From an uncultured virus (IMG/VR IMGVR_UViG_3300021399_000162) (lineage: Duplodnaviria > Heunggongvirae > Uroviricota > Caudoviricetes), in the IMG/VR virus record IMGVR_UViG_3300021399_000162: 64,000 nucleotides of DNA. One strand, given 5' to 3'. Below, in pieces: positions 1 to 64,000 of this stretch; positions within the stretch are counted from its first letter, which is position 1; every line of letters starts with the position of its first letter. The notes under the pieces were generated by a model, which was not told the DNA's origin, did no database searches, and worked only from the letters and a program-made list of their open reading frames with translations. The translations under genes and the position numbers were made by a program.

Positions 1-85
1 GGGGGGGGTCCCGCAATGACCCCCCCTCCCCTTTTCGCAGGGTCATCAGAAAAACCTCCGGGGGACCTTTTTAGGACCCGATTTT

Positions 86-283
86 CAGTGATATTTGAAC
101 GAGTTGGTGACGTTTGGGCTGTGCAGACTCCTTCTGCTGGTTGCTTCACCTCCTCAACCACGGGTTTTACGCTAAAAACAACGAGAAATTACTCTGCCAA
201 CGATTGGTTTTCATGGGTTTGTCATGTACCCTCCTCCTTTCCCAGTCGTTGAACGACGCCACCAACTCCTTCAAGTACCACTG
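86..283. ncRNA. Putative structured RNA/DNA element: 28-position closing stem enclosing several hairpins with CTCCT/CACCTCCT loops
   Basis: 86-113 pairs with 256-283 (24 of 28 Watson-Crick). Internal hairpins GCAGA-ctcct-TCTGC (123-137) and TGGTTG-cttcacctcct-CAACCA (138-160); CCTCCTCCTTT at about 230-240. Confidence 0.55.
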
Positions 284-308
284 ACAGACGAAAGAGAGAC
301 GATGTACG

Positions 309-671
309 ATGAAAATGGCTAACAGTACGGAGTCTCAAACGGCTCCAGTGATGCCAAGATCCTGTTTAACACCAGAAGCAGAAGAAAACCAGCTAATTTC
401 TCTGGCCATCGATGCTGCCAAGAAACAGTTGGTCGAGGGAACTGCATCAAATTCGATCATCCTTCACTATCTCAAACTTGCCACCACAAGGGAACGGATC
501 GAGCGAGAGATCATGGAGAAGCAAAAAGAGCTCATGGCAGCCAAGACTGAAGTTCTTGCATCCCAGGCAAGGGTTGAAGAGCTTTATACTCAGGCAATGA
601 AAGCCATGCAAAAGTACAGCGGATACGATGGCGGGGGTGTTGATGATGACGAATTCATCCCAGCTCCTTAA
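309..671 (+). CDS. Phage protein, possible terminase small subunit
   Basis: 120-aa helical ORF; first gene before the HNH, adaptor and TerL genes. Function inferred from position only. Confidence 0.45.
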   Translation: MKMANSTESQTAPVMPRSCLTPEAEENQLISLAIDAAKKQLVEGTASNSIILHYLKLATTRERIEREIMEKQKELMAAKTEVLASQARVEELYTQAMKAMQKYSGYDGGGVDDDEFIPAP

Positions 672-1077
672 ATCCTACTCTGAGTTGATCAAACTTCCTA
701 CATTCGATGAGCGCTTTGAATATTTAGCGCTTAACGGAAGCATCGCAGAAGATACACTTGGATACATGCGATACCTAGCTCAACGATTCTACGCTTCTCC
801 AGAGTGGAAACAGATCCGAGACAAAGTAATAGAACGCGACAATGGTTGTGAATTAGGCGTCGATGGATACTACATTCACGGCGCTATTTACATTCATCAC
901 ATTAATCCCATCACAAGACTAGACATCCAGTATGGAACAGACCTGCTTCAAAATCTAGATAATCTTGTGTGCTGTTCCTATGACGTCCATCAAGCCATCC
1001 ATTATGGAAACAAGGATCGTATTCCAAGGGATCCTGTTCCTCGCAGACCTAACGACACTTGCCCATGGAAGGAGTAA
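643..1077 (+). CDS. HNH endonuclease (packaging-associated)
   Basis: W..IRDKVIERDNGC...IHHINP...NLVCC...HQAIH HNH signature, near the terminase. Confidence 0.85.
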   Translation: MMTNSSQLLKSYSELIKLPTFDERFEYLALNGSIAEDTLGYMRYLAQRFYASPEWKQIRDKVIERDNGCELGVDGYYIHGAIYIHHINPITRLDIQYGTDLLQNLDNLVCCSYDVHQAIHYGNKDRIPRDPVPRRPNDTCPWKE

Positions 1078-1086
1078 GAGACCGAT

Positions 1087-1452
1087 ATGAATGAAAGCAT
1101 CCTTGAAACAGTTCGGGTCGCCTGCAATGTCGGTCCCGACAACACTGACTTCGACAATGAATTGATCTTGTATACCAATTCTGTCCTGGCTATTGCTACA
1201 CAGCTTGGCATCGGACCTAAGACTGGCTTTCATATTACAGGCGAGTCCGAGTCTTGGCAGGAATTCCTAGGCGACATGAATGCAGATGCCATTAACACTA
1301 TCCAGACATACATCGGAAAGAAAGTTAAGTCGCTCTTTGATCCTCCAGTTTCCTCAGCTGTCAAGGAAAGTTTGGAGCGCAACCTTGCTGAACTTGAGTG
1401 GCGCAGTAATGTGGCCGCTGAATCTATTGAATTGGAGGGAACAAGCCCATGA
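1087..1452 (+). CDS. Head-tail adaptor/connector protein
   Basis: SIL...FDNELI..N...QLGIGP...LFDPP...ELEWR pattern of gp6/gp15-like connectors. Confidence 0.6.
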   Translation: MNESILETVRVACNVGPDNTDFDNELILYTNSVLAIATQLGIGPKTGFHITGESESWQEFLGDMNADAINTIQTYIGKKVKSLFDPPVSSAVKESLERNLAELEWRSNVAAESIELEGTSP

Positions 1453-3137
1453 GTGTAATACTTGTTTCCAATGAGCTATCTGGGCATTATCTGATGCATT
1501 ATCGCACCAGGGGTTCAAAGAATGGTGTACGGCTTTACCAGAACCCTGATGGCACTTTAACTCCTCTCGGTCGTGAGCATTATGGTATTGGCGAGGATAA
1601 TCGACGCTATGCTCGATTTGAATCAACCATCACCAAGAATACGAGTAACGCCAGTAAGCACGAGTCAAAGGCTGCTGAAATAAAACGAGATCTCGATAAA
1701 GACGAAGCCCGAATGATTAAGGGTAAGTCACATATGACCGATTGGGATCGAACCAAGCTTCTCAAGAAGTACTATAAGCTGAACACCAAGTCATTTGCAT
1801 ATCAGCGTAAAGCTGAACGGGGCAAATACAAGCTTATGAAGTTCCTCAGTAAGGTGCAGAAATCTTACGATGACACTGTAGCACATGCTGATTCAGAGGC
1901 CAATTTCAAAGCTTTCCTCGACAGTTTAACCGAAGAACAGCGTAACGCTCTCTATGTTATCTTCGATGACATCCTTCCGGATGACGATGATGGGCAGCTT
2001 GAACAGAACGGCACAGATGGCGCATATCTTGCACATTTCAGAACCAAGGGATCTGAGAATGGCGTAAGAAGGTACCAGTATGAAGATGGAACTTACACTC
2101 CACTCGGTCGAATCCACTATGGTATCGGTCTAGGTCGTAAAAAGAAAGGCAATGGCGAATCTGATTCTTCTGGATCTGAAAAGCGGCAGACAAGAGCTGA
2201 GAAGAAAGAAGCCCGTCGCAAAGCTCGAGCAGAAAAAAGAGAGCAGTCCAAAATTGAACGGAAAGCTCTCAAAGATGCTGCCGAACTGGAACGCAAGAAT
2301 ATTAGAAACCTTACTGATGAGGAACTCCAGGCTCGCATCAATAGACTCAGCAAAGAGAAGCAATTGGATCAGCTTATCCGAGAGCAGTCCGAACGAGCAT
2401 CTTCGCCTCTTCGCCAGAAAGCATCAAAATTGCTGAGCGAAGCAGCCGAGAATCTTGCCAAGCAGGCTCTTAGCACTCTTACTCAGAAGGCGATCAGTAA
2501 GATCGGTGAAAGACTTGATGAGAAGGAAGTCATCGATCTGAGCAGATACAAGGACGTTGACCTCTTCTCCCTCAAGTCTGACGAACTCGCCAAGATCCAG
2601 GATGCCTTTGCTAAGGCTGGTCAGATTGCCGAGAATCGCAATAAGGTATTCTCCAACGTTGAGAATGCTGAAAGGCGTGAGAAGGCTAAGAGAGACGAAG
2701 AAGAGAGACAGCGGCGCGAAACTGAGAAGAAGGCTGAAGCAGAACGTAAGAAAGCCGAAGCTGAGCAGAAAGCCACTGAAGAAAAACAGAGAGCTGAGGC
2801 AGCAAAGCGCCAAGCCGAAGAAGAGAAACGCAGAGCAGAGCAGAAGGCCGAAGATGATCGTCGAGCAGCTGAGCGTAAAGCTGAGAATGACCGGCGTGCT
2901 GAAGAGAAGCGTCTGGAAGATGCAAGGAAGTATGCCGAGAAGATGGCTCGCCTGAAACAGGCTGAGAATGACCGTAAAGCTAAGCAGGATGCCAAAGATG
3001 CCAAGAAGTCTGGAGATGCACCTTCTACTTCTGTTGTCAACCAGGCAAAGCGAATGGAAAACTTTGGGTATAGTCCTAGAGAAATTGCTGCTGCACTTGG
3101 CCTATCTGAGGATACTGTGAAGAAGATTCTCAGGTGA
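1449..3137 (+). CDS. Probable internal virion protein: two H(Y/F)RT.GS.NGVR.YQ..DGT.TPLGR.HYG repeats, long E/K/R/A coiled coil, C-terminal HTH
   Basis: Duplicated motif visible in the translation; C-terminus GYSPREIAAALGLSEDTVKKIL is HTH-like. Confidence 0.6.
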   Translation: MSVILVSNELSGHYLMHYRTRGSKNGVRLYQNPDGTLTPLGREHYGIGEDNRRYARFESTITKNTSNASKHESKAAEIKRDLDKDEARMIKGKSHMTDWDRTKLLKKYYKLNTKSFAYQRKAERGKYKLMKFLSKVQKSYDDTVAHADSEANFKAFLDSLTEEQRNALYVIFDDILPDDDDGQLEQNGTDGAYLAHFRTKGSENGVRRYQYEDGTYTPLGRIHYGIGLGRKKKGNGESDSSGSEKRQTRAEKKEARRKARAEKREQSKIERKALKDAAELERKNIRNLTDEELQARINRLSKEKQLDQLIREQSERASSPLRQKASKLLSEAAENLAKQALSTLTQKAISKIGERLDEKEVIDLSRYKDVDLFSLKSDELAKIQDAFAKAGQIAENRNKVFSNVENAERREKAKRDEEERQRRETEKKAEAERKKAEAEQKATEEKQRAEAAKRQAEEEKRRAEQKAEDDRRAAERKAENDRRAEEKRLEDARKYAEKMARLKQAENDRKAKQDAKDAKKSGDAPSTSVVNQAKRMENFGYSPREIAAALGLSEDTVKKILR

Positions 3138-3141
3138 TCTG

Positions 3142-4881
3142 ATGCTATCGAACACAGCGATACCGATCTACTACGGCCAGTTTAGAGCCAGCGTAATGGC
3201 TGGTGAAATACCAATCTGTGAAACCATCGAGCTTGAGATGCATCGTATAGATGATCTGATTGCAGATCCGAAATACTACTACGATGACAAAGCTATTGAT
3301 GGTTTTATTGCGTTCTGTGAAGAGGAAATGACCCTCACAGACGGCGCCGATCTACATCTTCTTCCAACATTCAAACTTTGGGCCGAGAGCATCTTTGCCT
3401 GGTTCTACTTCGAGGAACAAGACGTACCAGTTCCAATGCCAAATGGCGATGTTTCGTACGTTAAACGATTCATCAAGCGAAGACTCTGCAATGAGCTTTA
3501 CTTGATCATTCCTCGAAGTGCTGCAAAGACACTGTTTGCTACTCTTATTCAAGCCTACTTCCTGGTCGTTGATACCACTTCGACCCACCAGGTTGCTGTG
3601 GCATATACAACAGACCAGGCTGATGAAACGCTTTCCCCGTTCCGAGTAGCTATTACTAGGGCTAAAGGACCGCTCTTCAAGTTCCTTACTGAAGGAAACC
3701 TCCACAACACAACCGGTAGCAAGGCTAATCGCCCGAAACTGTATTCCAGTAAGCGTGGAATTGAGATGTCTCTAACAAATAGCTACATCGAAACGATTCC
3801 TATGCGTATTGACCGGCTTCAGTCCATCCGAACCAAGATCATCACGATCGACGAATGGCTCAGTTGTGACGTTAGAGACAATGTTCTTCAGGCAGCTCGC
3901 CAAAGTTGCGCTAAAACTCCTGACAGTTTGATCGTTGCGATCAGCTCCGAGGGTACTGTTCGAAACGCAATTGGCGATGACATCAAAATGGACCTGCTTA
4001 AAGTGCTTCATGGAGACATCCAGGCGCCTTACAGACGGATCTGGTATTACAAACTTGACAGTGAGAAGGAAGTTGGCCATCCGGAACTGTGGATTAAGGC
4101 CAATCCTAATCTCGGAGCAACGGTAACATACGAAACTTACCAGCGAGACGTTGAGATTGCTGAGAAATCGCCTTCCGCACGAAACGATATTCTTGCTAAG
4201 CGATTCAATCTCCCGATGGAAGGCTTCACATACTTCTTCACCTACGAAGAAACTCTGCGTCATATGCCCAAATCGTACTGGAAGATGTCCTGCTCGATGG
4301 GTTGTGACCTTAGTTTGGGTGACGACTTCTGTGCATTTACATTCTTGTTCCCTCTGGGCAATGGTGCATTCGGTGTTAAGACTCGAGACTATATTTCTCA
4401 GCTTACATTTGATCGACTCAGCCCGGCAATGAGCGTTAAATACATGGAATTCATCAACGAAGGCAGTCTTATGGTTATGCCCGGTACAGTTCTCGACATG
4501 ATGACTGTGTACGCAGACCTAGACAACTTCATAGTTGAGCAGGAATACACGGTAGAATGTGTTGGCTACGACCCATACAATGCTAAAGACTTCGTGGCCC
4601 GTTGGGAAAGTGAAAACGGGCCTTTTGGTATTGAGAAAGTTATTCAAGGTGCCAAAACCGAGTCAGTACCTCTTGGCGAACTCAAGAAACTGGCTGGTGA
4701 AAGATTGCTTCTCTTTGACGAATCCCTTATGGAATTTGCAATGGGTAACTGTATGGTGAGCGTCGACACCAACGGTAACAGAAAGCTGATCAAAAAGCGC
4801 GCAGATCAGAAGATTGATGCTGTCGCTGCACTTATGGATGCTTATGTTGCCTATAAACTGAATCGAGACGCATTTGAGTGA
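3142..4881 (+). CDS. terL: Terminase large subunit
   Basis: 579 aa; variant Walker A (IPRSAAKT), Walker B (TIDEW), nuclease motifs GCDLS..DD, YDPYN, KIDAVAALMDA. Confidence 0.92.
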   Translation: MLSNTAIPIYYGQFRASVMAGEIPICETIELEMHRIDDLIADPKYYYDDKAIDGFIAFCEEEMTLTDGADLHLLPTFKLWAESIFAWFYFEEQDVPVPMPNGDVSYVKRFIKRRLCNELYLIIPRSAAKTLFATLIQAYFLVVDTTSTHQVAVAYTTDQADETLSPFRVAITRAKGPLFKFLTEGNLHNTTGSKANRPKLYSSKRGIEMSLTNSYIETIPMRIDRLQSIRTKIITIDEWLSCDVRDNVLQAARQSCAKTPDSLIVAISSEGTVRNAIGDDIKMDLLKVLHGDIQAPYRRIWYYKLDSEKEVGHPELWIKANPNLGATVTYETYQRDVEIAEKSPSARNDILAKRFNLPMEGFTYFFTYEETLRHMPKSYWKMSCSMGCDLSLGDDFCAFTFLFPLGNGAFGVKTRDYISQLTFDRLSPAMSVKYMEFINEGSLMVMPGTVLDMMTVYADLDNFIVEQEYTVECVGYDPYNAKDFVARWESENGPFGIEKVIQGAKTESVPLGELKKLAGERLLLFDESLMEFAMGNCMVSVDTNGNRKLIKKRADQKIDAVAALMDAYVAYKLNRDAFE

Positions 4882-8713: not shown

Positions 8714-9361
8714 ATGTCTAAACTTACTTGGGACGATGTTGGTACCCACAAGTATGCTCTTGGTGTAAGCAAGGGCGTTGTCTACAAGTTTGACAAGACC
8801 AAGAACAAGTGGCTCGGTACCGCTTGGACTGGTCTTTCCAGCGTTTCCGAAACCCCTGATGGCGGTGACGCAAACGACCTGTATGCCGATAACATTCTTT
8901 ATGCCAGCATCCGTGGCACTGAGAAGCTCGGCGGCACCATCGAGTGCTATGACTATCCGGATGCTTTCGATTCCTGCATTGGCGAAACTGAACTGGTGCC
9001 CGGTATTACCGTCGGTCAGCAGATCAAGGAGCCGTTCTGCTTCTGCTATCGCTCTGAAGTTGGCGAATCCAGCGACCCGTATCATTCCTACAAGCTGCAT
9101 GTGATCTACAACTGCACTGCTGCTGCTTCTGAGCGCAGCTATGAGACCATCAACGACAGCCCTGACACCGAGCCGATGAGCTTTGACTATGACAGCGTTC
9201 CTGTTCCTGTCACTGGTCATAAGGCTACTTCCAGCCTCGAGATCGATCCGGCTAAGGTCGACTCTGCTAAGATGAAGCTCCTTGAAGATGCTCTTTATGG
9301 CACCGACACTGAGGAAGCTTATCTGCCGCTTCCCGACGACCTGCTTGATCTTATCAAGTAA
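8714..9361 (+). CDS. Major tail protein
   Basis: LTWD..G...Y..GVSKGV, AWTGL..VSE.P.GG, LYADN..Y, YKLHVIYN; RBS GAGGAGG; followed by a terminator. Confidence 0.85.
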   Translation: MSKLTWDDVGTHKYALGVSKGVVYKFDKTKNKWLGTAWTGLSSVSETPDGGDANDLYADNILYASIRGTEKLGGTIECYDYPDAFDSCIGETELVPGITVGQQIKEPFCFCYRSEVGESSDPYHSYKLHVIYNCTAAASERSYETINDSPDTEPMSFDYDSVPVPVTGHKATSSLEIDPAKVDSAKMKLLEDALYGTDTEEAYLPLPDDLLDLIK

Positions 9362-9365
9362 CCTT

Positions 9366-9408
9366 AAAGGGAGTGCTCATACAATCTTGGGCACTCCCTT
9401 TTCTTTTT
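9366..9408 (+). terminator. Intrinsic terminator after the major tail gene
   Basis: AAAGGGAGTGCTCA...TGGGCACTCCCTTT stem followed by a T-tract. Confidence 0.85.
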
Positions 9409-9430
9409 ACAGTATGAAAGGAGAAGAACT

Positions 9431-9886
9431 ATGATTAAAAAGACCCTCACCTATCATGACTTCGATGGCGAAGAACACACCAAAGACTTTTACTTCAGCA
9501 TGAACCAGACCGAATTTAGCCTGATGAACAATCAGATCCCTGGCGGTCTTGAGAGTTATCTGAAGCGGATTCAGGAAGACAAGGATTCCGCCAAACTGCT
9601 TGACCTGCTTACCATGTTCATCACGGAAAGTTATGGCGAGCGCAGTGATGATGGCGCCCTGTTCTTCAAGAAAGATCCCAAGGGTCGCAAGCTTGGCGAA
9701 GCATTCATCATGACTGAAGCTTGCGATAACCTGCTGACCGAACTTCTCGACAATGAGAATCGCATTGCCGCTTTCCTGACCGGTATGCTGCCTACCAACA
9801 TCCGTGGCAAGGTCGAAGCCGGCATCCGTGAAGCTCAGCTGAAGCTCGCTGAAACTGAAGAAAAAGCAGAACCTGCTGCTAAATAA
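9431..9886 (+). CDS. Tail assembly chaperone
   Basis: MIKKTLTY.DFDG....DFYF; lies between the major tail and tape measure genes. Confidence 0.7.
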   Translation: MIKKTLTYHDFDGEEHTKDFYFSMNQTEFSLMNNQIPGGLESYLKRIQEDKDSAKLLDLLTMFITESYGERSDDGALFFKKDPKGRKLGEAFIMTEACDNLLTELLDNENRIAAFLTGMLPTNIRGKVEAGIREAQLKLAETEEKAEPAAK

Positions 9887-9905
9887 ATAATCGGAGGTGA
9901 CGACT

Positions 9906-10454
9906 GTGCTCCAGCTTCATATTAGTGGAACCGACGAGTCGGGTACAGTGTTGTTTGACGAGCAGGCCAACAAATTTATTACGGCCAAGAGCCGTACAAT
10001 TCAGCTTGAGCACAGTCTCATCTCCATAAGTAAATGGGAATCAAAATGGAAGACCCCTTTTATTGGCGCACAGCTTACACGCGATCAAACACTTGACTAT
10101 ATCCGATGTATGACTCTAACTCCGAATGTAGACGAGAACTTGTATGCTTGCATAGACGATGACAATGTCCGAACTGTACAGCAGTATATTGCTGACGAAA
10201 AGACAGCCACGTGGTTTCGTGAAGATAAGAACCAAAAAGAAGATCATAAGGTGTTAACCTCGGAGCGTATCTATTCATGGATGGTTGTCCTTAATATTCC
10301 ATTCGAATGCGAGAAATGGCACCTGTCAAGATTGATGATTCTAATTAGAGCTGTAAGTGAGCTCAATGCTCCGCCAAAGAAGCGCTCAAGAGCTGAATCC
10401 GCAGCGCATTACAGAGCACAGCACGCAGCTAGACGAAAACGACGTGGTAGGTGA
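9906..10454 (+). CDS. Second tail assembly chaperone-like protein
   Basis: GTG start after GGAGG; LEHSL.SISKWESKW and IPFECEKWHL.RL motifs. Confidence 0.6.
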   Translation: MLQLHISGTDESGTVLFDEQANKFITAKSRTIQLEHSLISISKWESKWKTPFIGAQLTRDQTLDYIRCMTLTPNVDENLYACIDDDNVRTVQQYIADEKTATWFREDKNQKEDHKVLTSERIYSWMVVLNIPFECEKWHLSRLMILIRAVSELNAPPKKRSRAESAAHYRAQHAARRKRRGR

Positions 10455-10458
10455 TAAC

Positions 10459-10851
10459 ATGTCTTCGTTAATTACTGTACGCCACAAGGGCAATTTCAAG
10501 AAGACCGAATCTTTTCTCGCTGAGCTTCAACGCAAGTCGTTTCTAAAGAAACTCGATCAGTACGGTCAGATGGGTGTTGAAGCTCTCCAGGCAGCCACTC
10601 CGGTAAGGACCGGTAAAACCGCCGCTAGTTGGAGATACGTGATCGAGAAGAGTGAATCTGGAGATCGTGTAAATCTGATGTGGGTTAACGACAACACTGC
10701 ATCTAATGGCGACAATATTATTAAACTACTTGTCCGAGGTCATGGAACTAGAAACGGCCATTACGTTAAAGGCCGTAACTTTGTGACCCCTGCTCTTGAA
10801 CCTATATTCGAAGAGATTTCCAAGAATTTAATAAAGGAGGTGGCGAAGTAA
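10459..10851 (+). CDS. HK97 gp10-like neck/tail protein
   Basis: ATPVRTGKTAASW...GHGTRNG.YV.GRNFV.PA. Confidence 0.7.
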   Translation: MSSLITVRHKGNFKKTESFLAELQRKSFLKKLDQYGQMGVEALQAATPVRTGKTAASWRYVIEKSESGDRVNLMWVNDNTASNGDNIIKLLVRGHGTRNGHYVKGRNFVTPALEPIFEEISKNLIKEVAK

Positions 10852-31474: not shown

Positions 31475-32293
31475 ATGTACGAAAATGGAAACATGTCTCC
31501 TGCTGATATGGCAGCAGTCGTTGGCAACAACAATGATGGTTTCGGTTTTGGCGGCAATGGTGCTTGGTGGATCTTCATTCTTTTCTTGTTCGCCATGAAT
31601 AATGGCTGGGGAAATGGCTTCGGTGGTAACGGTGCAGGTGCCGGTATGCAGCGTGGATTTGATCAGCAGGCTGTCATGAGTGGTATTGGTGATATCTCCG
31701 GTGCAATCGGTAACGGCTTTGCTAACGTCCAGACTGCCCTCTGCAATGGTTTCGCTGGCGTGAATGCCGGTATGGCAAATGGCTTTGCACAGGCAGAGAT
31801 TGCAAACAACGGTCGCCAAATGGCGAACATGAATCAGCTCTTTGGCATCCAGACTGGTCTTGGAAATCAGCTTAATTCTATTTCTATGGGTCTCCAGAAT
31901 TACTGTTGCGAGAACCGTGCAGCTACGGCCGACCTGAAGTACACGGTTGCTACTGAGTCTGCTGAAACTCGTAACAATTGCAATGCCAATAACCAGAAGA
32001 TCCTGGATAAGCTCTGCCAGATGGAAATGGATACCATGCGTCAGAACTATGAAGGTCAGCTTCGTACAATGCAGACCCAGTTGGATGCCGCTCGCACAGA
32101 GATTCAGGGCCTTAAGGATAGTGTTGCTCGCACAGCTGATCGTGCCGCTATCATTGCCAATAATGAAGCTCAGACGAATGCTCTCGAGCGTTACCTCGCT
32201 CCCAATCCGATTCCTGCCTATCCTGTGCAGAACCCGAATTGCTGCCCGAATCAGGGATATGGTTGGGGTGGCTGTTGGGGCAGGGCAGCCTAA
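31475..32293 (+). CDS. Gly/Asn-rich membrane-anchored coiled-coil protein of unknown function
   Basis: GFGGNGAWWIFILFLF hydrophobic segment, GFA repeats, CCENR motif, heptad coiled coil, Cys/Gly tail. Confidence 0.75.
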   Translation: MYENGNMSPADMAAVVGNNNDGFGFGGNGAWWIFILFLFAMNNGWGNGFGGNGAGAGMQRGFDQQAVMSGIGDISGAIGNGFANVQTALCNGFAGVNAGMANGFAQAEIANNGRQMANMNQLFGIQTGLGNQLNSISMGLQNYCCENRAATADLKYTVATESAETRNNCNANNQKILDKLCQMEMDTMRQNYEGQLRTMQTQLDAARTEIQGLKDSVARTADRAAIIANNEAQTNALERYLAPNPIPAYPVQNPNCCPNQGYGWGGCWGRAA

Positions 32294-39714: not shown

Positions 39715-40080
39715 ATGCGATACCATCATGAGGACGATGGACTGGTTCATGTTGGTCAGTTTGGAATTCTTTATACGTGTGATCATCCGGTATATGACAG
39801 TTGCACACTATACAGAGTTCGTGATTGCGGTCTTGCTGTGATTCAGCAAAGATGCCTTCAGTCGTGCAAATGTACTTCTTGGGGTCCAATTGACACTGAC
39901 TTGGTAGATATAATCTACCTTCATCCGAAATTCCTTCCATTCTTCAAGAAATATGCAAAGCCAAAAAACGAGAAAGGTCTGTACCCGACTGTAACTGTAC
40001 GCCAGATCATGTGGGGTCTGCGAATGAAGCCTCTCAAGCGTGAACCTTGGGAGACTTACTTTGATAGAAAAGGGTTCTAG
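39715..40080 (+). CDS. Hypothetical protein
   Basis: CDHPVY..CTLY...GLAVIQQR...YPTVTVRQIMW; RBS GGAGGTG. Confidence 0.65.
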   Translation: MRYHHEDDGLVHVGQFGILYTCDHPVYDSCTLYRVRDCGLAVIQQRCLQSCKCTSWGPIDTDLVDIIYLHPKFLPFFKKYAKPKNEKGLYPTVTVRQIMWGLRMKPLKREPWETYFDRKGF

Positions 40081-61868: not shown

Positions 61869-62426
61869 ATGCAATTTAACAAGCATTACAACCTTGAAGG
61901 CAGTCATGCTTTTCTTGGTGCCAGCAAATATCATTGGATAAACTACGACGAAGAGAAACTCATCGCAAGCTACAATAGCTTCCTGGCTGCACAGAAAGGC
62001 ACAGAGCTTCATAGCTTTGCTGCACAGTGCATTAAACTTGGCCAGCGTCTTCCAAAGAGTCACAAGACTCTCAATATGTATGTGAACGACGCTATTGGTT
62101 TCAAGATGGTCCCCGAGCAGGTGCTGTACTATTCAGACAACTGTTATGGCACAGCAGACTCAATTATATTCAAAGATGATTTCCTCAGGATCCACGATCT
62201 TAAGACTGGCGCGACACCGACTCATATGGAGCAGCTAATGATATATGCTGCTCTTTTTTGTTTGGAGTACAGAGTTAAACCTGGTCTGATAGGTATGGAA
62301 CTGAGAATCTACCAGAACGATGATATTGCTATTCTGCAGCCTCAAGCCACTGATATTCTCCCGATCATCGACAAAATTGTGACATTCGATAAACTCATCA
62401 ATAAGATTAAAGAAGTAGAGGGTTGA
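61869..62426 (+). CDS. PD-(D/E)XK (Cas4-like) exonuclease
   Basis: HAFL.AS..HW, GTELH, EQ.L, GTAD, IHDLKTG, QL.IYA. Confidence 0.75.
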   Translation: MQFNKHYNLEGSHAFLGASKYHWINYDEEKLIASYNSFLAAQKGTELHSFAAQCIKLGQRLPKSHKTLNMYVNDAIGFKMVPEQVLYYSDNCYGTADSIIFKDDFLRIHDLKTGATPTHMEQLMIYAALFCLEYRVKPGLIGMELRIYQNDDIAILQPQATDILPIIDKIVTFDKLINKIKEVEG

Positions 62427-64000
62427 TGTGTATGAATTCCGTAACTAAAGAAATGATATTGCATTTCAGCGGCGATCCTCTGCTGCTTGAGGGTGTCGAC
62501 GATGATATTGATGTCATTGATGTATTTCTTATGCATTCCGGACGAGGCCACGATGATAATCCTCCAGGACGAGGATCTGGAGTACTTCCGTGGGGTTCTG
62601 GTGAAAATCCTTACCAGCATGCAGGTGATTTTGTCACTCGTGTTAAGCGTGCTCGTAAGCAGCATCCAGAGCTCAGCCAGGATGATATTGCTAAGATGGT
62701 TGGCTGCAAGAGTGCCAGCGATCTTAAGAAACAGTACTCTAAGTCTTTGTCTGTTTATAGAGTTGGCAGAAACAAAGAGATCGATGCTCTTCTTAAAACC
62801 GGCATGACTCAGCAGGCTGTGGCTGATAAATTCGGCGTCAATGAATCTACACTTAGATCTTGGCTGAATCCAGAAAGCCGTAAGAAAGCAGAAAAGTCTC
62901 AGATCATTGCTGATGGCTTGGAGAAGCTCGTTAAGGAACGTGGACTGATAGATGTTGGTGCTGGTGTTGAGAAAGAACTTAACTGTTCTAAAGAAAAGCT
63001 CAACGAAGCTCTGGCCATTCTTCAGGATAAAGGATATCCAATTTATGGCGGACGTGTTCCTCAGGCTACAAATCCTGGCAAGCAGACTACTATTAAAGCA
63101 CTTGGTGATCCGAGCAGTGATGTTAAGTGGAGCGACTTATATCAGCATCCTGAAAAGATTCAGTCTGTTACCGATTATATTGTCCGTGAAGGTCCTGATG
63201 GTCAGGAGGTATTTACTAAAAAATGGCAGTATCCTGCAGCCATTGATCCTAAGCGCATTATGATCAGATTCCGGGATGATATTGCTCCTGATGGTCATAC
63301 TGGCATTGAGCGAGACGGCACAATCGAGATTCGTCGCAATGTTCCTGATCTTGATCTCAAAGGTAGTCATTACGCTCAGGTTCGCATCATGACTCAGGAT
63401 GGCCATTATCTCAAAGGTATGGCTCACTATGCATCTGAGGAAATGCCTGAAGGTGTTGATGTGATATTCAACACCAATAAGACAAGAGCTCAGGCTGATA
63501 TTGTCTTTAAGAAGATTAAGAGTGATCCGAACAATCCTTTTGGCGCTCTTCTTAGAGAGAATGGCGGTCAATACACTTATATTGATAAAGACGGCAAAGA
63601 GAAACTTGGACTGATAAACAAAACCCGGCAAGAAGGTGACTGGGAAGATTGGGATGATACTCTTCCTTCGCAGTTCCTTGCTAAACAGCCAAGAGAGCTG
63701 ATTGAGAAACAGCTCGGCAAATCAATCGCAGCTAAGAAAAAAGAATATGAGGAACTGATATCCTTAACCAATCCTACGGTTAAGAAGAAGTTGCTTGAAG
63801 ACTTTGCTAATGGCTGTGATTCTGACTCTATTCATCTTACCGCCGCTAAACTTCCAAGACAGAAATACCAAGTGATATTGCCTCTGCCGACTTTGGATGA
63901 TAATGAGGTTTATGCTCCGAACTTCAAGAACGGCGAAACGATTGCTCTTATAAGATATCCGCATGCTGGATTGTTTGAAATTCCGATTCTCAAGGTTAAC
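62426..64000 (+). CDS. Putative phage-encoded single-subunit two-barrel RNA polymerase, N-terminal part; truncated by the window end and missing from the ORF track
   Basis: Frame open for 525 codons: SG..PWGSGENPYQH, two HTH-like segments, DG.IE.RR.V.DL, YAQVRI, EGDW..W...L.SQFL.KQ, LIRYPHAG.FEIP. A catalytic DxDGD would lie beyond the window. Confidence 0.65.
   Translation, partial: MCMNSVTKEMILHFSGDPLLLEGVDDDIDVIDVFLMHSGRGHDDNPPGRGSGVLPWGSGENPYQHAGDFVTRVKRARKQHPELSQDDIAKMVGCKSASDLKKQYSKSLSVYRVGRNKEIDALLKTGMTQQAVADKFGVNESTLRSWLNPESRKKAEKSQIIADGLEKLVKERGLIDVGAGVEKELNCSKEKLNEALAILQDKGYPIYGGRVPQATNPGKQTTIKALGDPSSDVKWSDLYQHPEKIQSVTDYIVREGPDGQEVFTKKWQYPAAIDPKRIMIRFRDDIAPDGHTGIERDGTIEIRRNVPDLDLKGSHYAQVRIMTQDGHYLKGMAHYASEEMPEGVDVIFNTNKTRAQADIVFKKIKSDPNNPFGALLRENGGQYTYIDKDGKEKLGLINKTRQEGDWEDWDDTLPSQFLAKQPRELIEKQLGKSIAAKKKEYEELISLTNPTVKKKLLEDFANGCDSDSIHLTAAKLPRQKYQVILPLPTLDDNEVYAPNFKNGETIALIRYPHAGLFEIPILKVN

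What the first reader, a model, noticed from the sequence alone, without database searches (positions are those of the whole stretch)
86..283. Left-end branched element displaying three anti-Shine-Dalgarno (or, antisense, GGA) segments
Seen: a 28-position stem (86-113/256-283) encloses a multiloop. Two hairpin loops read CTCCT and CTTCACCTCCT, and a linker reads CCTCCTCCTTT. Known: CACCUCCUUU is the 3' end of 16S rRNA, and CsrB/RsmZ sponges display GGA in hairpin loops. Inference: on + this could be an sRNA that masks many RBSs; on - it could be a CsrA-type sponge or ribosome decoy. Wobble pairs do not settle the strand (2 A-C versus 1 T-G). A packaging-related role is also possible given its position before the terminase module.
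Basis: partly seen in the sequence, partly recalled or inferred. Interest (0 to 1): 0.75.

Follow-up and report, generated by a model that had tools for sequence, protein, structure and literature searches.

The report
Phage late-operon RNA hairpin mimicking ribosome tail
Just inside the cohesive end of this gut phage lies a real, widely conserved folded RNA whose exposed loop copies the ribosome's mRNA-docking sequence; it heads the late genes of a large phage group that carries its own unusual RNA polymerase, and its function is still unproven.

Summary
Window 85-113 pairs with 256-284 (29 nt, 86% complementary) and encloses CUCC-bearing loops. It is one member, an enlarged branched one, of a large RNA family missing from Rfam 15. 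A long inverted repeat sits upstream of the same first late gene in 145 of 177 related loci, against 0 of 177 in two controls. All 26 consensus stem pairs show compensatory changes. G-U outnumbers A-C 151 to 54, which fixes the + strand. UCUCCUUUC, eight of nine letters of the 16S 3' tail as I recall it, is present in 52-57 of 58 sequences.

The element keeps its place next to cos, downstream of a YonO-like RNA polymerase gene. It stays there when other genes or a tRNA separate it from the first late gene. Cultured carriers are Faecalibacterium phage FP_oengus and, more weakly, Lactococcus phage 1706 and Arthrobacter phage Gordon.

Best reading: a co-transcribed leader, or processed RNA, of the late operon that displays an anti-Shine-Dalgarno loop. 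The minus-strand CsrA-sponge and DNA-site readings are not supported. No transcript has been seen, and the mechanism is inferred.

The parts
1..44 (.). Right-end side of the cos region. A G-run (1-10) and its inverted C-run partner (18-28) are followed by TTTTCGCAGGGT. This is homologous to the conserved ATAGGGGGnGGGTC...CACCCCCTCCC...CATCGCGGCGGT block of relatives.
   Evidence: Upstream regions of 34 loci printed in register. The motif scan finds the inverted copy at 18-28. A DNA contig of run X1 runs across window position 1, so the record is cut inside cos.
44..75 (.). Inferred physical left genome end (about 44-45) and the conserved palindrome AAAAACCTCCGGGGGACCTTTTT (50-73).
   Evidence: Phages Gordon (ends on record, 9-base 3' overhang), GirlPower, Bing and 1706 begin at the homologous CC(T)-A/T run-YCCCCGGGGGA. 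So do several IMG/VR contigs (L005, L007, L012, L022, L023, L050, L063). The palindrome is unique in the 64 kb window.
82..287 (+). The structured RNA element, an enlarged branched member of the family.
   Evidence: Covariance model R1, built without the window or its 4 nearest relatives, matches 82-287 at 38.0 bits, E 7e-6. This is the only place matched in 64 kb (the - strand of the same place gives 35.8 bits). Fold z = -5.2.
85..113 (+). 5' arm of the outer stem (pairs with 256-284).
   Evidence: The stem is 98% paired with 7 compensatory pairs among the 5 sequences of the subfamily. It is homologous to the 26-pair family stem.
123..137 (+). Hairpin with loop CTCCT. It is specific to the window and not conserved.
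   Evidence: Present in the minimum-energy fold, but only 67% of cells are paired in the 5-sequence alignment.
138..160 (+). Hairpin with loop CTTCACCTCCT. UCACCUCCU matches nine letters of the 16S tail as I recall it.
   Evidence: The stem changes GGTTG/CAACC to GGCTG/CAGCC in L001-L003 and to a different stem in L004, while the loop is kept.
198..251 (+). Hairpin carrying the unpaired TCCTCCTTTC (232-241), the homologue of the family's invariant UCUCCUUUC.
   Evidence: The covariance model aligns the family motif to this stretch. The helix is 91% paired in the subfamily.
256..284 (+). 3' arm of the outer stem. It contains CTCCTTC (266-272).
309..671 (+). First late gene, a 120-aa phrog_4259 protein of unknown function in the small-terminase position. 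It was used as the anchor to collect relatives.
   Evidence: PHROGs E 3.6e-36, with no Pfam, NCBIfam or PDB-sequence match. The AF2 model is a short helix plus a long helix, pLDDT 74.
62423..64000 (+). N-terminal 525 aa of the YonO-like (RdRP-like, two-barrel) RNA polymerase gene. It runs off the window and, in the closed genome, ends shortly before cos.
   Evidence: phrog_4291 E 8e-158, profile positions 19-484 of 909. Relatives L002 and L163 show the order RNAP (DFDGD motif, C-terminal GerE-type HTH), then phrog_4303, then cos, then the element.

Best explanation
Window 82-287 encodes, on the + strand, a member of a large, previously uncatalogued family of structured RNAs. The family stands at the head of the late (packaging and structural) operon, immediately inside cos. 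It occurs in the phage supergroup that carries a YonO-like single-chain RNA polymerase: gut Clostridia phages and prophages, FP_oengus, and probably Lactococcus phage 1706 and Arthrobacter cluster AU.

Shown:
- a 26-45 bp closing stem kept by compensatory change
- wobble pairs that fix the + strand
- a nearly invariant, mostly unpaired UCUCCUUUC that copies the 16S rRNA 3' tail
- a fixed place next to cos, whatever gene comes first

Inferred:
- The element is transcribed as the leader of the late transcript, after cos joining, possibly by the phage polymerase.
- The long duplex is an RNase III-type processing and stability hairpin.
- The exposed anti-Shine-Dalgarno loop pairs with GGAGG-type ribosome-binding sites and so tunes translation at the late switch. 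It would act on the first late cistron in cis or, after excision of the hairpin top, on other messages in trans.

The window's version carries extra branches and two conserved anti-SD displays (144-154 and 232-241).
For: Real and non-random:
- Fold z = -5.2.
- The inverted-repeat criterion is met upstream of the anchor gene in 145 of 177 loci, against 0 of 177 shuffled and 0 of 177 downstream controls.

Homologous family:
- Model R1 hits the + strand in 77 of 100 and 71 of 84 loci (counted by hand).
- It hits the window, FP_oengus (33.5 bits), Gordon (20.1 bits, E 0.004) and phage 1706 (15.7 bits, E 0.02).

RNA-level selection:
- All 26 consensus pairs show changes on both sides.
- 89.4% of cells are paired against 65.8% in shuffles. 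The covariation score is 0.719 against 0.280 (0 of 500 shuffles), and 0.12-0.19 when the partner columns are slid.

Strand:
- Watson-Crick 1152, G-U 151, A-C 54, other 101.
- 253 against 65 in 122 distinct elements.
- The + strand fold is more stable in 10 of 14 lineages tested and in phage 1706.

Motif:
- UCUCCUUUC is present in 52-57 of 58 sequences that were chosen by their stem, not by the motif.
- Its mean unpaired probability is 0.68, against 0.31 for whole elements.

Leader position:
- No terminator follows the element, and strong SD sequences come 10-110 nt later.
- The element stays beside cos when ORFs or a tRNA are inserted before the anchor gene.
- RNAP or phrog_4303 lies upstream in 88 of 93 repeat-positive loci with at least 1 kb of flank.

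Precedent: YonO starts the SPbeta late operon upstream of 'an unannotated non-coding RNA' (PMC5467207, passages read).
Against: - No transcript, start site or processed end is known. Metatranscriptome contigs lie only on 381-3016, and contigs cannot show absence.
- No promoter could be assigned. The one sigma-70-like match (281-310) lies after the element.
- For the window alone the - strand fold is slightly more stable (-72.1 against -65.9 kcal/mol; also L005), and its own wobbles favour -.
- A tRNA (L010, L169) or whole genes between the element and the anchor gene argue against simple cis masking of one particular ribosome-binding site. A tRNA, once processed out, would also sever a 5' stabiliser from its message.
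- Complementarity to SD sequences is trivial for any anti-SD word, so the target scan proves nothing.
- RNase III cleavage is inferred from stem length only.
- The alignment behind the statistics was picked by the presence of an inverted repeat, which inflates 'percent paired'. It does not inflate compensatory change or the G-U/A-C asymmetry.
- The actinophage and 1706 matches are weak.
Confidence: 0.55

Rival explanations
1. An RNA that acts on the polymerase. The nascent hairpin would bind the transcribing enzyme (the phage's YonO-like RNAP or the host's). It would make the enzyme processive or termination-resistant over the long late operon, as put RNA of HK022 does. Alternatively it would mimic a promoter, as 6S RNA does.
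For: The element is tied to the operon head and to the RNAP-phrog_4303-cos module, not to a particular first gene. Sequence is conserved in the stem as well as in the loop, as expected for a protein contact. Earlier notes of this scan report structured leaders at the head of other YonO-type late operons (leads only). SPbeta's YonO transcript begins with a non-coding RNA.
Against: No similarity to put or 6S was found, and Rfam gives no match. Five repeat-positive loci have no RNAP or phrog_4303 within the flank. The invariant word is exactly an anti-SD, which this model leaves unexplained. Nothing about binding was tested.
Confidence: 0.15
2. A decoy of the 16S rRNA 3' tail. The exposed UCUCCUUUC or UCACCUCCU would titrate a factor that recognises or cuts the ribosome's anti-SD tail, such as a MazF-type toxin or another defence nuclease. 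The RNA would then act as a pseudo-substrate that protects translation late in infection.
For: The match extends beyond the CCUCC core (UUUC in the family, UCACCUCCU in the window's hairpin 138-160, UCACCUCCUUUC in L078). The motif is accessible. Toxins that remove the anti-SD exist (PMC12274833, seen only as a search listing and start of abstract).
Against: No such factor is identified in these hosts. Most members read UCUCC, not CCUCC. No experiment bears on this reading.
Confidence: 0.08
3. A DNA-level packaging site (cosB-like). The inverted repeat and the repeated CTCCTT words would be binding sites on duplex DNA for the terminase, small-terminase-like or HNH proteins.
For: The element lies between the cos cut and the first packaging-module genes, about 40 nt from the inferred end, as cosB does in lambda (recalled). 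Part of the arm sequence is conserved.
Against: Arm sequences differ completely between lineages while complementarity is kept over 26-45 bp. Mismatches are strand-biased G-T over A-C at 2.8 to 1, and duplex DNA cannot sense that bias. The spacers of 40-190 nt are too long for cruciform extrusion (established knowledge). The nearby palindrome 50-73 is a better candidate for a protein site. In Gordon the element lies 400 nt from the end.
Confidence: 0.07
4. A minus-strand RNA displaying GGAG in its loops, acting as a CsrA-type sponge or ribosome decoy.
For: In the window the - strand fold is as good as the + strand fold, and the loops would read AGGAG.
Against: Across the family the conserved wobbles become A-C mismatches on the - strand, and - strand folds are weaker in most lineages. 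AGGAG on the + strand is almost absent from the elements while CTCCT is almost universal. Rfam gives no CsrB/RsmZ-type match. All flanking genes run in the + direction.
Confidence: 0.03

Closest known systems
Unannotated non-coding RNA / leader at the start of the YonO-dependent late operon of Bacillus phage SPbeta (Forrest et al. 2017, PMC5467207; passages read)
   Same: In both, a phage-encoded single-chain two-barrel RNA polymerase gene is followed by a small gene. A non-coding structured stretch then opens the late operon that leads to the terminase and portal genes. The SPbeta gap is also rich in CUCC/CCUU words.
   Different: Model R1 finds nothing significant in the SPbeta gap (best 11.8 bits, E 0.17). 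SPbeta packages from a pac site elsewhere (bioRxiv 10.1101/2021.11.22.469490, passages read). Its gap is 1.7 kb and holds a DUF3800-VIII RNA. The two polymerases are only distantly related.
C-rich / anti-SD loop small RNAs of Gram-positive bacteria
   Same: Both have pyrimidine-rich loops complementary to GGAGG ribosome-binding sites, exposed on stable hairpins. Both occur in the same two phyla.
   Different: Those are independent genes with their own promoter and intrinsic terminator, and they are short. This element has no terminator, has a 26-45 bp closing stem, sits in an operon leader and matches no Rfam family.
RNase III processing hairpins of phage polycistronic transcripts (T7 early sites, SP82) and the processing stalks that flank 16S rRNA (recalled)
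   Same: Both are long, nearly perfect RNA duplexes with occasional conserved mismatches, placed between transcription units. Here tRNA genes lie close by in some members.
   Different: Cleavage has not been tested here. Those sites do not carry an invariant anti-SD loop.
cosB of phage lambda (recalled)
   Same: Both occupy the position between the cos cut and the first packaging gene, and both contain inverted sequence elements.
   Different: cosB works as duplex DNA bound by protein. Here covariation and G-U asymmetry point to a single-stranded + strand fold.
phi29 packaging RNA (pRNA; recalled)
   Same: Both are structured RNAs encoded at the left genome end beside the packaging genes.
   Different: Rfam gives no match. 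These are cos phages with a large terminase and an HNH endonuclease, not protein-primed phi29-like phages. No inter-molecular loop complementarity was looked for.

Membership tests
New family defined here (model R1: long closing stem + UCUCCUUUC loop at the late-operon head) | Match to a covariance model built from other members, on the + strand | tested here: met
   Window 82-287, 38.0 bits, E 7e-6, the only place matched in 64 kb. The model was built without the window or L001-L004.
New family defined here (model R1: long closing stem + UCUCCUUUC loop at the late-operon head) | Position between the cos palindrome and the first late gene, on the same strand as the genes | tested here: met
   Palindrome at 50-73, element at 82-287, gene from 309.
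New family defined here (model R1: long closing stem + UCUCCUUUC loop at the late-operon head) | Unpaired CUCCUUUC motif | tested here: met
   TCCTCCTTTC at 232-241 is unpaired in the minimum-energy fold and is aligned to the family motif.
CsrB/RsmZ-type protein sponges | GGA motifs in hairpin loops on the transcribed strand | tested here: not met
   GGAG would be displayed only on the - strand, which the G-U/A-C asymmetry rejects (151 against 54; 253 against 65).
CsrB/RsmZ-type protein sponges | Match to a curated family model | tested here: not met
   No Rfam match at E up to 10 over 86-283. None at E up to 1 in 20 related loci.
Independent anti-SD small RNAs (RsaE/RoxS, 6C type) | Accessible pyrimidine-rich loop complementary to SD | tested here: met
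Independent anti-SD small RNAs (RsaE/RoxS, 6C type) | Own promoter and intrinsic terminator | tested here: not met
   No terminator-like site in 1-700 and no promoter-like site before the element. No T-run follows the stem in 35 members.
RNase III processing hairpins | RNA duplex of about two helical turns or more within a longer transcript | tested here: met
   The stem is 29 bp in the window and 26-45 bp in relatives. That it lies within a longer transcript is inferred, not shown.
RNase III processing hairpins | Cleavage by RNase III | not testable with these tools
   This needs an in vitro cleavage assay or RNA ends in an rnc mutant.
lambda-type cosB (duplex DNA terminase site) | Selection on duplex sequence, with no strand-specific pairing signal | tested here: not met
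   Compensatory change in 26 of 26 pairs and strand-biased wobble.
phi29 pRNA | Match to the pRNA family model, in a phi29-like protein-primed genome | tested here: not met
   No Rfam match. The genome has a large terminase, an HNH endonuclease and cos ends.

The most novel reading that the evidence does not exclude
The hairpin is cut out of the late transcript by RNase III, as 16S rRNA is cut out of its precursor. This would yield an abundant 'mini 16S tail', a stable RNA whose only invariant part is the ribosome's mRNA-docking sequence. A phage supergroup spanning Firmicutes and Actinobacteria would use it to re-programme translation initiation at the late switch. It would do so either by occupying Shine-Dalgarno sites of competing messages or by serving as a decoy for factors and toxins that attack the real 16S tail. 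The scan's earlier notes of unrelated phages with anti-SD loops beside terminase genes would then point to a general, convergent phage strategy.
Probability: 0.15. Interest if true: 0.85.

Novelty: new variant of a known kind. Interest (0 to 1): 0.72.

Why it matters
The find adds a well-supported, very widespread structured RNA family to gut phages. The anchor gene alone has 526 relatives in IMG/VR and 173 in prokaryote genomes. It is found in prophages of Lachnospiraceae, Ruminococcus, Blautia, Hungatella and Clostridium leptum. At least one cultured phage (FP_oengus) carries it clearly, so it can be tested, and Lactococcus phage 1706 and Arthrobacter phage Gordon probably do too.

It marks the start of the late operon in a phage supergroup whose signature gene is an unusual single-chain RNA polymerase. 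That polymerase's promoter and regulation are unknown, so the element gives a concrete handle on the question.

The near-invariance of a copy of the 16S rRNA tail in an exposed loop is a sharp, testable clue. It suggests that these phages interfere with, or exploit, Shine-Dalgarno pairing late in infection.

Tried and rejected
**Searches that found nothing**
- Nucleotide searches of the phage collection with window 1-3200 (near) and 1-700 (distant) found nothing. Relatives had to be reached through the neighbouring protein.
- No whole genome is held for this window.
- The Rfam evalue-threshold scans gave only sub-threshold chance matches (snoRNA, SorX, miRNA precursors) and two tRNAs.
- Three literature searches found no description of this element. 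Two more concerned context, and one on cluster AU found no comment on its 600-nt non-coding left end. One search was rejected for syntax and not repeated.
- Look-ups of earlier findings by place and by sequence gave nothing.

**RNA evidence**
- One search found 4 RNA-labelled runs, and 3 RNA runs plus 1 DNA run were laid on the window.
- RNA contigs cover pieces of 381-3016 and none of 1-380.
- Contigs cannot show absence, strand or ends, so this says nothing about whether the element is expressed.

**Analyses that were not informative**
- The sigma-70 and terminator scan of 1-700 found one weak promoter-like site after the element and no terminator.
- I considered whether the conserved (A/G)TGRTATTT in the 5' arm is an extended -10 box. 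I rejected this, because a start inside the stem would abolish the fold that is under selection.
- The duplex scan for targets of the three loops in the window returned several ribosome-binding sites (for example UUGAGGAGGUG before the ORF at 39715). Any anti-SD word would find these, so it is not evidence.
- GAAAGGAG words in the loci simply mark gene starts.
- SPbeta: R1 finds nothing significant in the yonN-yonK gap. I could not map the published start site (a B. subtilis coordinate) onto the phage record. A resemblance of GGCATGGGGGTGCC there to the family's G-run motif is noted but untested.
- Streptomyces phages Rima, GirlPower and Bing show no element.
- The phrog_4259 protein has no Pfam, NCBIfam or PDB-sequence relative. 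Its AF2 model is a helical hairpin too simple to search with, so no fold search was made.
- Protein-coding readings of 16-252 and 114-284 have no family match, and no frame is conserved across the family.

Full report
**1. The observation**

Window 85-113 and 256-284 form a 29-nt inverted repeat, 86% complementary, with 142 nt between the arms. Folded as RNA, the + strand of 86-283 gives -65.9 kcal/mol. Shuffles give -45.7 ± 3.9, so z = -5.2, and 0 of 200 shuffles fold as well. The - strand gives -72.1 kcal/mol and z = -4.95.

- hairpin 123-137 with loop CTCCT
- hairpin 138-160 with loop CTTCACCTCCT
- unpaired TCCTCCTTTC at 232-241, which lies in an internal loop of hairpin 198-251 rather than in a multiloop linker

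The 3' arm holds one more CTCCTTC.

**2. Surroundings**

The window is the late-gene end of a cos phage.
- After the element come a 120-aa phrog_4259 protein (309-671), an HNH endonuclease, a connector-type protein, a 562-aa protein with a C-terminal HTH, the large terminase and the portal.
- The last 1.6 kb of the window encode the N-terminal half of a phrog_4291 'RdRP'.
- In relatives this protein carries the DFDGD motif and a C-terminal GerE/sigma-4-type HTH. It is followed by a small phrog_4303 protein and then by cos.
- A DNA contig of a public run crosses window position 1, so the record is simply cut inside cos.
- This polymerase is the signature gene of a known supergroup: an actinophage supercluster plus Lactococcus phage 1706 and Faecalibacterium phage FP_oengus (bioRxiv 10.1101/842583, passages read). 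It is the same kind of enzyme as YonO of SPbeta.

**3. Relatives**

Nucleotide searches found nothing, so I collected DNA around relatives of the 120-aa protein:
- 25 IMG/VR loci
- with a profile, 80 of 526 further IMG/VR relatives
- 80 of 173 places in prokaryote genomes, mostly Lachnospiraceae, Ruminococcus and other Clostridia, including isolates of Hungatella hathewayi, Blautia and Clostridium leptum

A simple scan of up to 600 nt upstream of the gene used the criterion score at least 13 and arms at least 20 nt. It finds such an inverted repeat in 145 of the 177 loci with enough flank. The same scan finds it in 0 of 177 shuffled copies and in 0 of 177 equal-length downstream stretches. The arm sequences differ completely between lineages.

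**4. Structure and strand**

- Of 145 repeat-bearing elements, 87 remain at 85% identity or less. The 58 of these that are 135 nt or shorter were aligned. The 29 longer ones, among them the window's close relatives, were left out.
- RNAalifold predicts 26 pairs, and every one has sequences in which both sides changed.
- Counted on that structure, 89.4% of cells pair against 65.8% in shuffles. The covariation score is 0.719 against 0.280 (0 of 500 shuffles reach it), and 0.12-0.19 when partners are slid by 1-3 columns.
- Because the rows were chosen for having a repeat, 'percent paired' is inflated. The compensatory changes and the next figure are not.
- In the stem cells there are 1152 Watson-Crick pairs, 151 G-U, 54 A-C and 101 other. 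In 122 distinct elements the counts are 253 against 65, with 75 transversions.
- G-U on + would be A-C on -, so selection acts on a single-stranded + strand fold. That means an RNA made in the direction of the genes.
- Folding energies agree in most lineages. The exceptions are the window, L005 and L008.

**5. The conserved loop**

- In the 58 sequences, which were chosen by stem and not by motif, the nine columns UCUCCUUUC hold the consensus letter in 52-57 rows. A U-rich run precedes them.
- The motif is mostly unpaired. Its mean unpaired probability is 0.68, against 0.31 for whole elements, in 86 of 87 representatives. One representative has no motif.
- Eight of the nine letters equal the 3' tail of Gram-positive 16S rRNA. 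I quote that tail (CACCUCCUUUCU) from memory.
- Some members match further. UCACCUCCU is in the window's hairpin 138-160 and in L001-L004, and UCACCUCCUUUC is in L078.
- CTCCT occurs in nearly all elements and AGGAG in almost none.

**6. Membership of the window's element**

- A covariance model built from the 58 sequences (R1) matches window 82-287 at 38.0 bits, E 7e-6. This is the only place in 64 kb. The - strand of the same place scores 35.8 bits.
- The model aligns the family motif to 232-241.
- It matches the + strand in 77 of 100 and 71 of 84 loci (my hand count). Wherever both strands are listed, the + score is the higher. This is expected by construction and is not evidence for the strand.
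- It misses L001-L003, the window's nearest relatives, whose inserts are even larger.
- Within this subfamily of 5 sequences, the outer stem, hairpin 138-160 and hairpin 198-251 are kept with compensatory changes. Hairpin 123-137 is not kept.
- The window therefore holds an enlarged, branched variant with two conserved anti-SD displays.

**7. Place in the genome**

Upstream of the element lies a strongly conserved block of about 80 nt: ATAGGGGGnGGGTC, about 12 nt, CACCCCCTCCC, CATCGCGGCGGT, then CTT-AAAAATTCTCCGGGGGATATTTTTGG.
- Records of cultured phages begin exactly at the last part. These are Gordon (9-base 3' overhang; PMC5513430, table read), GirlPower, Bing and 1706. Several virome contigs do too.
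- The physical left end is therefore about window 44-45, and the element starts some 40 nt inside it.
- The element keeps this place when a YHHG..GMKWGVRK-type ORF, an amidase-like ORF or a tRNA separates it from the phrog_4259 gene.
- In phage 1706 the first gene after the element is a different one.
- No T-run terminator follows it. Strong SD sequences such as GAGAGGAGGCAG follow 10-110 nt later.
- Among 111 loci with at least 1 kb of flank, 88 have both the repeat and RNAP or phrog_4303 upstream, 11 have the genes only, 5 the repeat only and 7 neither. By my reading, nine of the 11 are positive with R1.
- These loci are related to one another, so this is synteny, not an independent association.

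**8. Cultured carriers**

- FP_oengus: record 31,790-31,970, 33.5 bits, E 1.6e-5.
- Arthrobacter phage Gordon: 398-527, 20.1 bits, E 0.004. The fold is -78 kcal/mol with z = -9.6, and it shows ACACUCCUUUCAAG unpaired.
- Lactococcus phage 1706: 35-176, 15.7 bits, E 0.02. It is branched, with three CUCC loops. The + fold has z = -5.1 and the - fold z = -2.5.
- The last two scores are weak. Position, strand and motif make homology likely, but convergence is not excluded.

**9. What it does**

The following is shown: a + strand single-stranded fold under selection, an exposed 16S-tail copy, and a fixed position at the operon head beside cos and after the polymerase module. The rest is inference.

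- The absence of a terminator and the adjacent ribosome-binding site make the element a leader of the late transcript.
- Since the polymerase gene, the small gene and the element are joined only across cos, that transcript may require circularised or concatemeric DNA.
- YonO starts the SPbeta late operon upstream of 'an unannotated non-coding RNA', and its promoter is unknown (PMC5467207, passages read).
- A 26-45 bp RNA duplex is a natural RNase III substrate (established knowledge). Cleavage would separate upstream and late messages and release the hairpin top with its anti-SD loop.
- The loop's simplest activity is pairing with GGAGG-type sites, as C-rich loops of Gram-positive small RNAs do.
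- The tRNA and gene insertions argue against a mechanism that needs the element to stay attached to one particular ribosome-binding site. They fit a processed or co-transcriptionally acting RNA.

I therefore rank the readings as follows:
- processed leader with an anti-SD function: 0.55
- polymerase-directed RNA: 0.15
- 16S-tail decoy: 0.08
- DNA packaging site: 0.07
- minus-strand sponge: 0.03

**10. Transcript evidence**

Transcript evidence is lacking. Animal-gut metatranscriptome contigs cover pieces of 381-3016 only. Contigs cannot show absence, ends or strand.

**11. Novelty**

- No Rfam 15 family matches the window or 20 related loci.
- Three full-text searches found no description.
- The papers on the supergroup and on cluster AU that I read in passages do not mention it.
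- Earlier notes of this scan, on other DNA, describe anti-SD loops beside terminase genes in unrelated phages and structured leaders at YonO-type late operons. These are unchecked leads. They suggest a recurring theme and do not report this family.
- I class the element as a new variant of known kinds (anti-SD loop RNAs, phage processing hairpins). It is backed by unusually strong comparative evidence, and its function is open.

Noticed in passing
window 62423-64000 (runs off the end); L002 2-2329; L163 2-985: A YonO-like / RdRP-like two-barrel RNA polymerase (phrog_4291, DFDGD motif) with HTH domains lies just before cos. A conserved small phrog_4303 protein follows it. The polymerase's promoter is unknown.
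   Followed up: partly
window 1-75: The cos region is conserved from Clostridia phages to actinophages. A G-run and C-run form an inverted repeat (1-28), and an A-tract/YCCCCGGGGGA/T-tract palindrome lies at 50-73. Cultured relatives and many virome contigs begin at the homologue of window 44-45. The record itself therefore starts about 44 nt before the physical left end, inside a G-run.
   Followed up: partly
L010 2876-2959; L169 1374-1458; L185 about 40-129: tRNA genes are inserted on the + strand between the element and the first late gene (a Clostridium leptum prophage and an IMG/VR relative). One lies just upstream of the element in L185. The last I judged by eye only.
   Followed up: partly
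L190 (Streptomyces phage GirlPower) about 150-968; L045 744-1460; L063 228-662; L117 259-1131: An ORF family with a conserved YHHG(I/V)xGMKWGVRK motif sits between the genome end or the element and the phrog_4259 gene. In the GirlPower record this 1-kb stretch carries no annotated gene.
   Followed up: no
L188 (SPBc2) 9153-10833, minus strand: The 1.7-kb gene-free gap between yonN and yonK of SPbeta holds a DUF3800-VIII RNA (RF03075, 47.5 bits) and many CUCC/CCUU words. It also holds GGCATGGGGGTGCC and CCTCCCCTCTTTTCGC, which resemble the G-run and C-run words of this family's cos block. Whether these mark a YonO-type promoter was not tested.
   Followed up: partly
window 1449-3137: A 562-aa protein just upstream of the large terminase has a C-terminal sigma-70 region 4 / HTH_23-like helix-turn-helix. 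It may be the real DNA-recognition (small terminase) component.
   Followed up: no
L189 (Arthrobacter phage Gordon) 1-600: A 600-nt non-coding left end holds further hairpins besides the element. One is repeat 170-196/245-271. Another is hairpin 345-388, whose loop reads GGGAACUCCUGCUC.
   Followed up: no
L102 about 1180-1215: In one member a terminator-like hairpin (AGCCCTTTGAA...TTCAAAGGGCT followed by TTTGTTT) lies between cos and the element. If it works, it would require a promoter of the element's own in that lineage.
   Followed up: no
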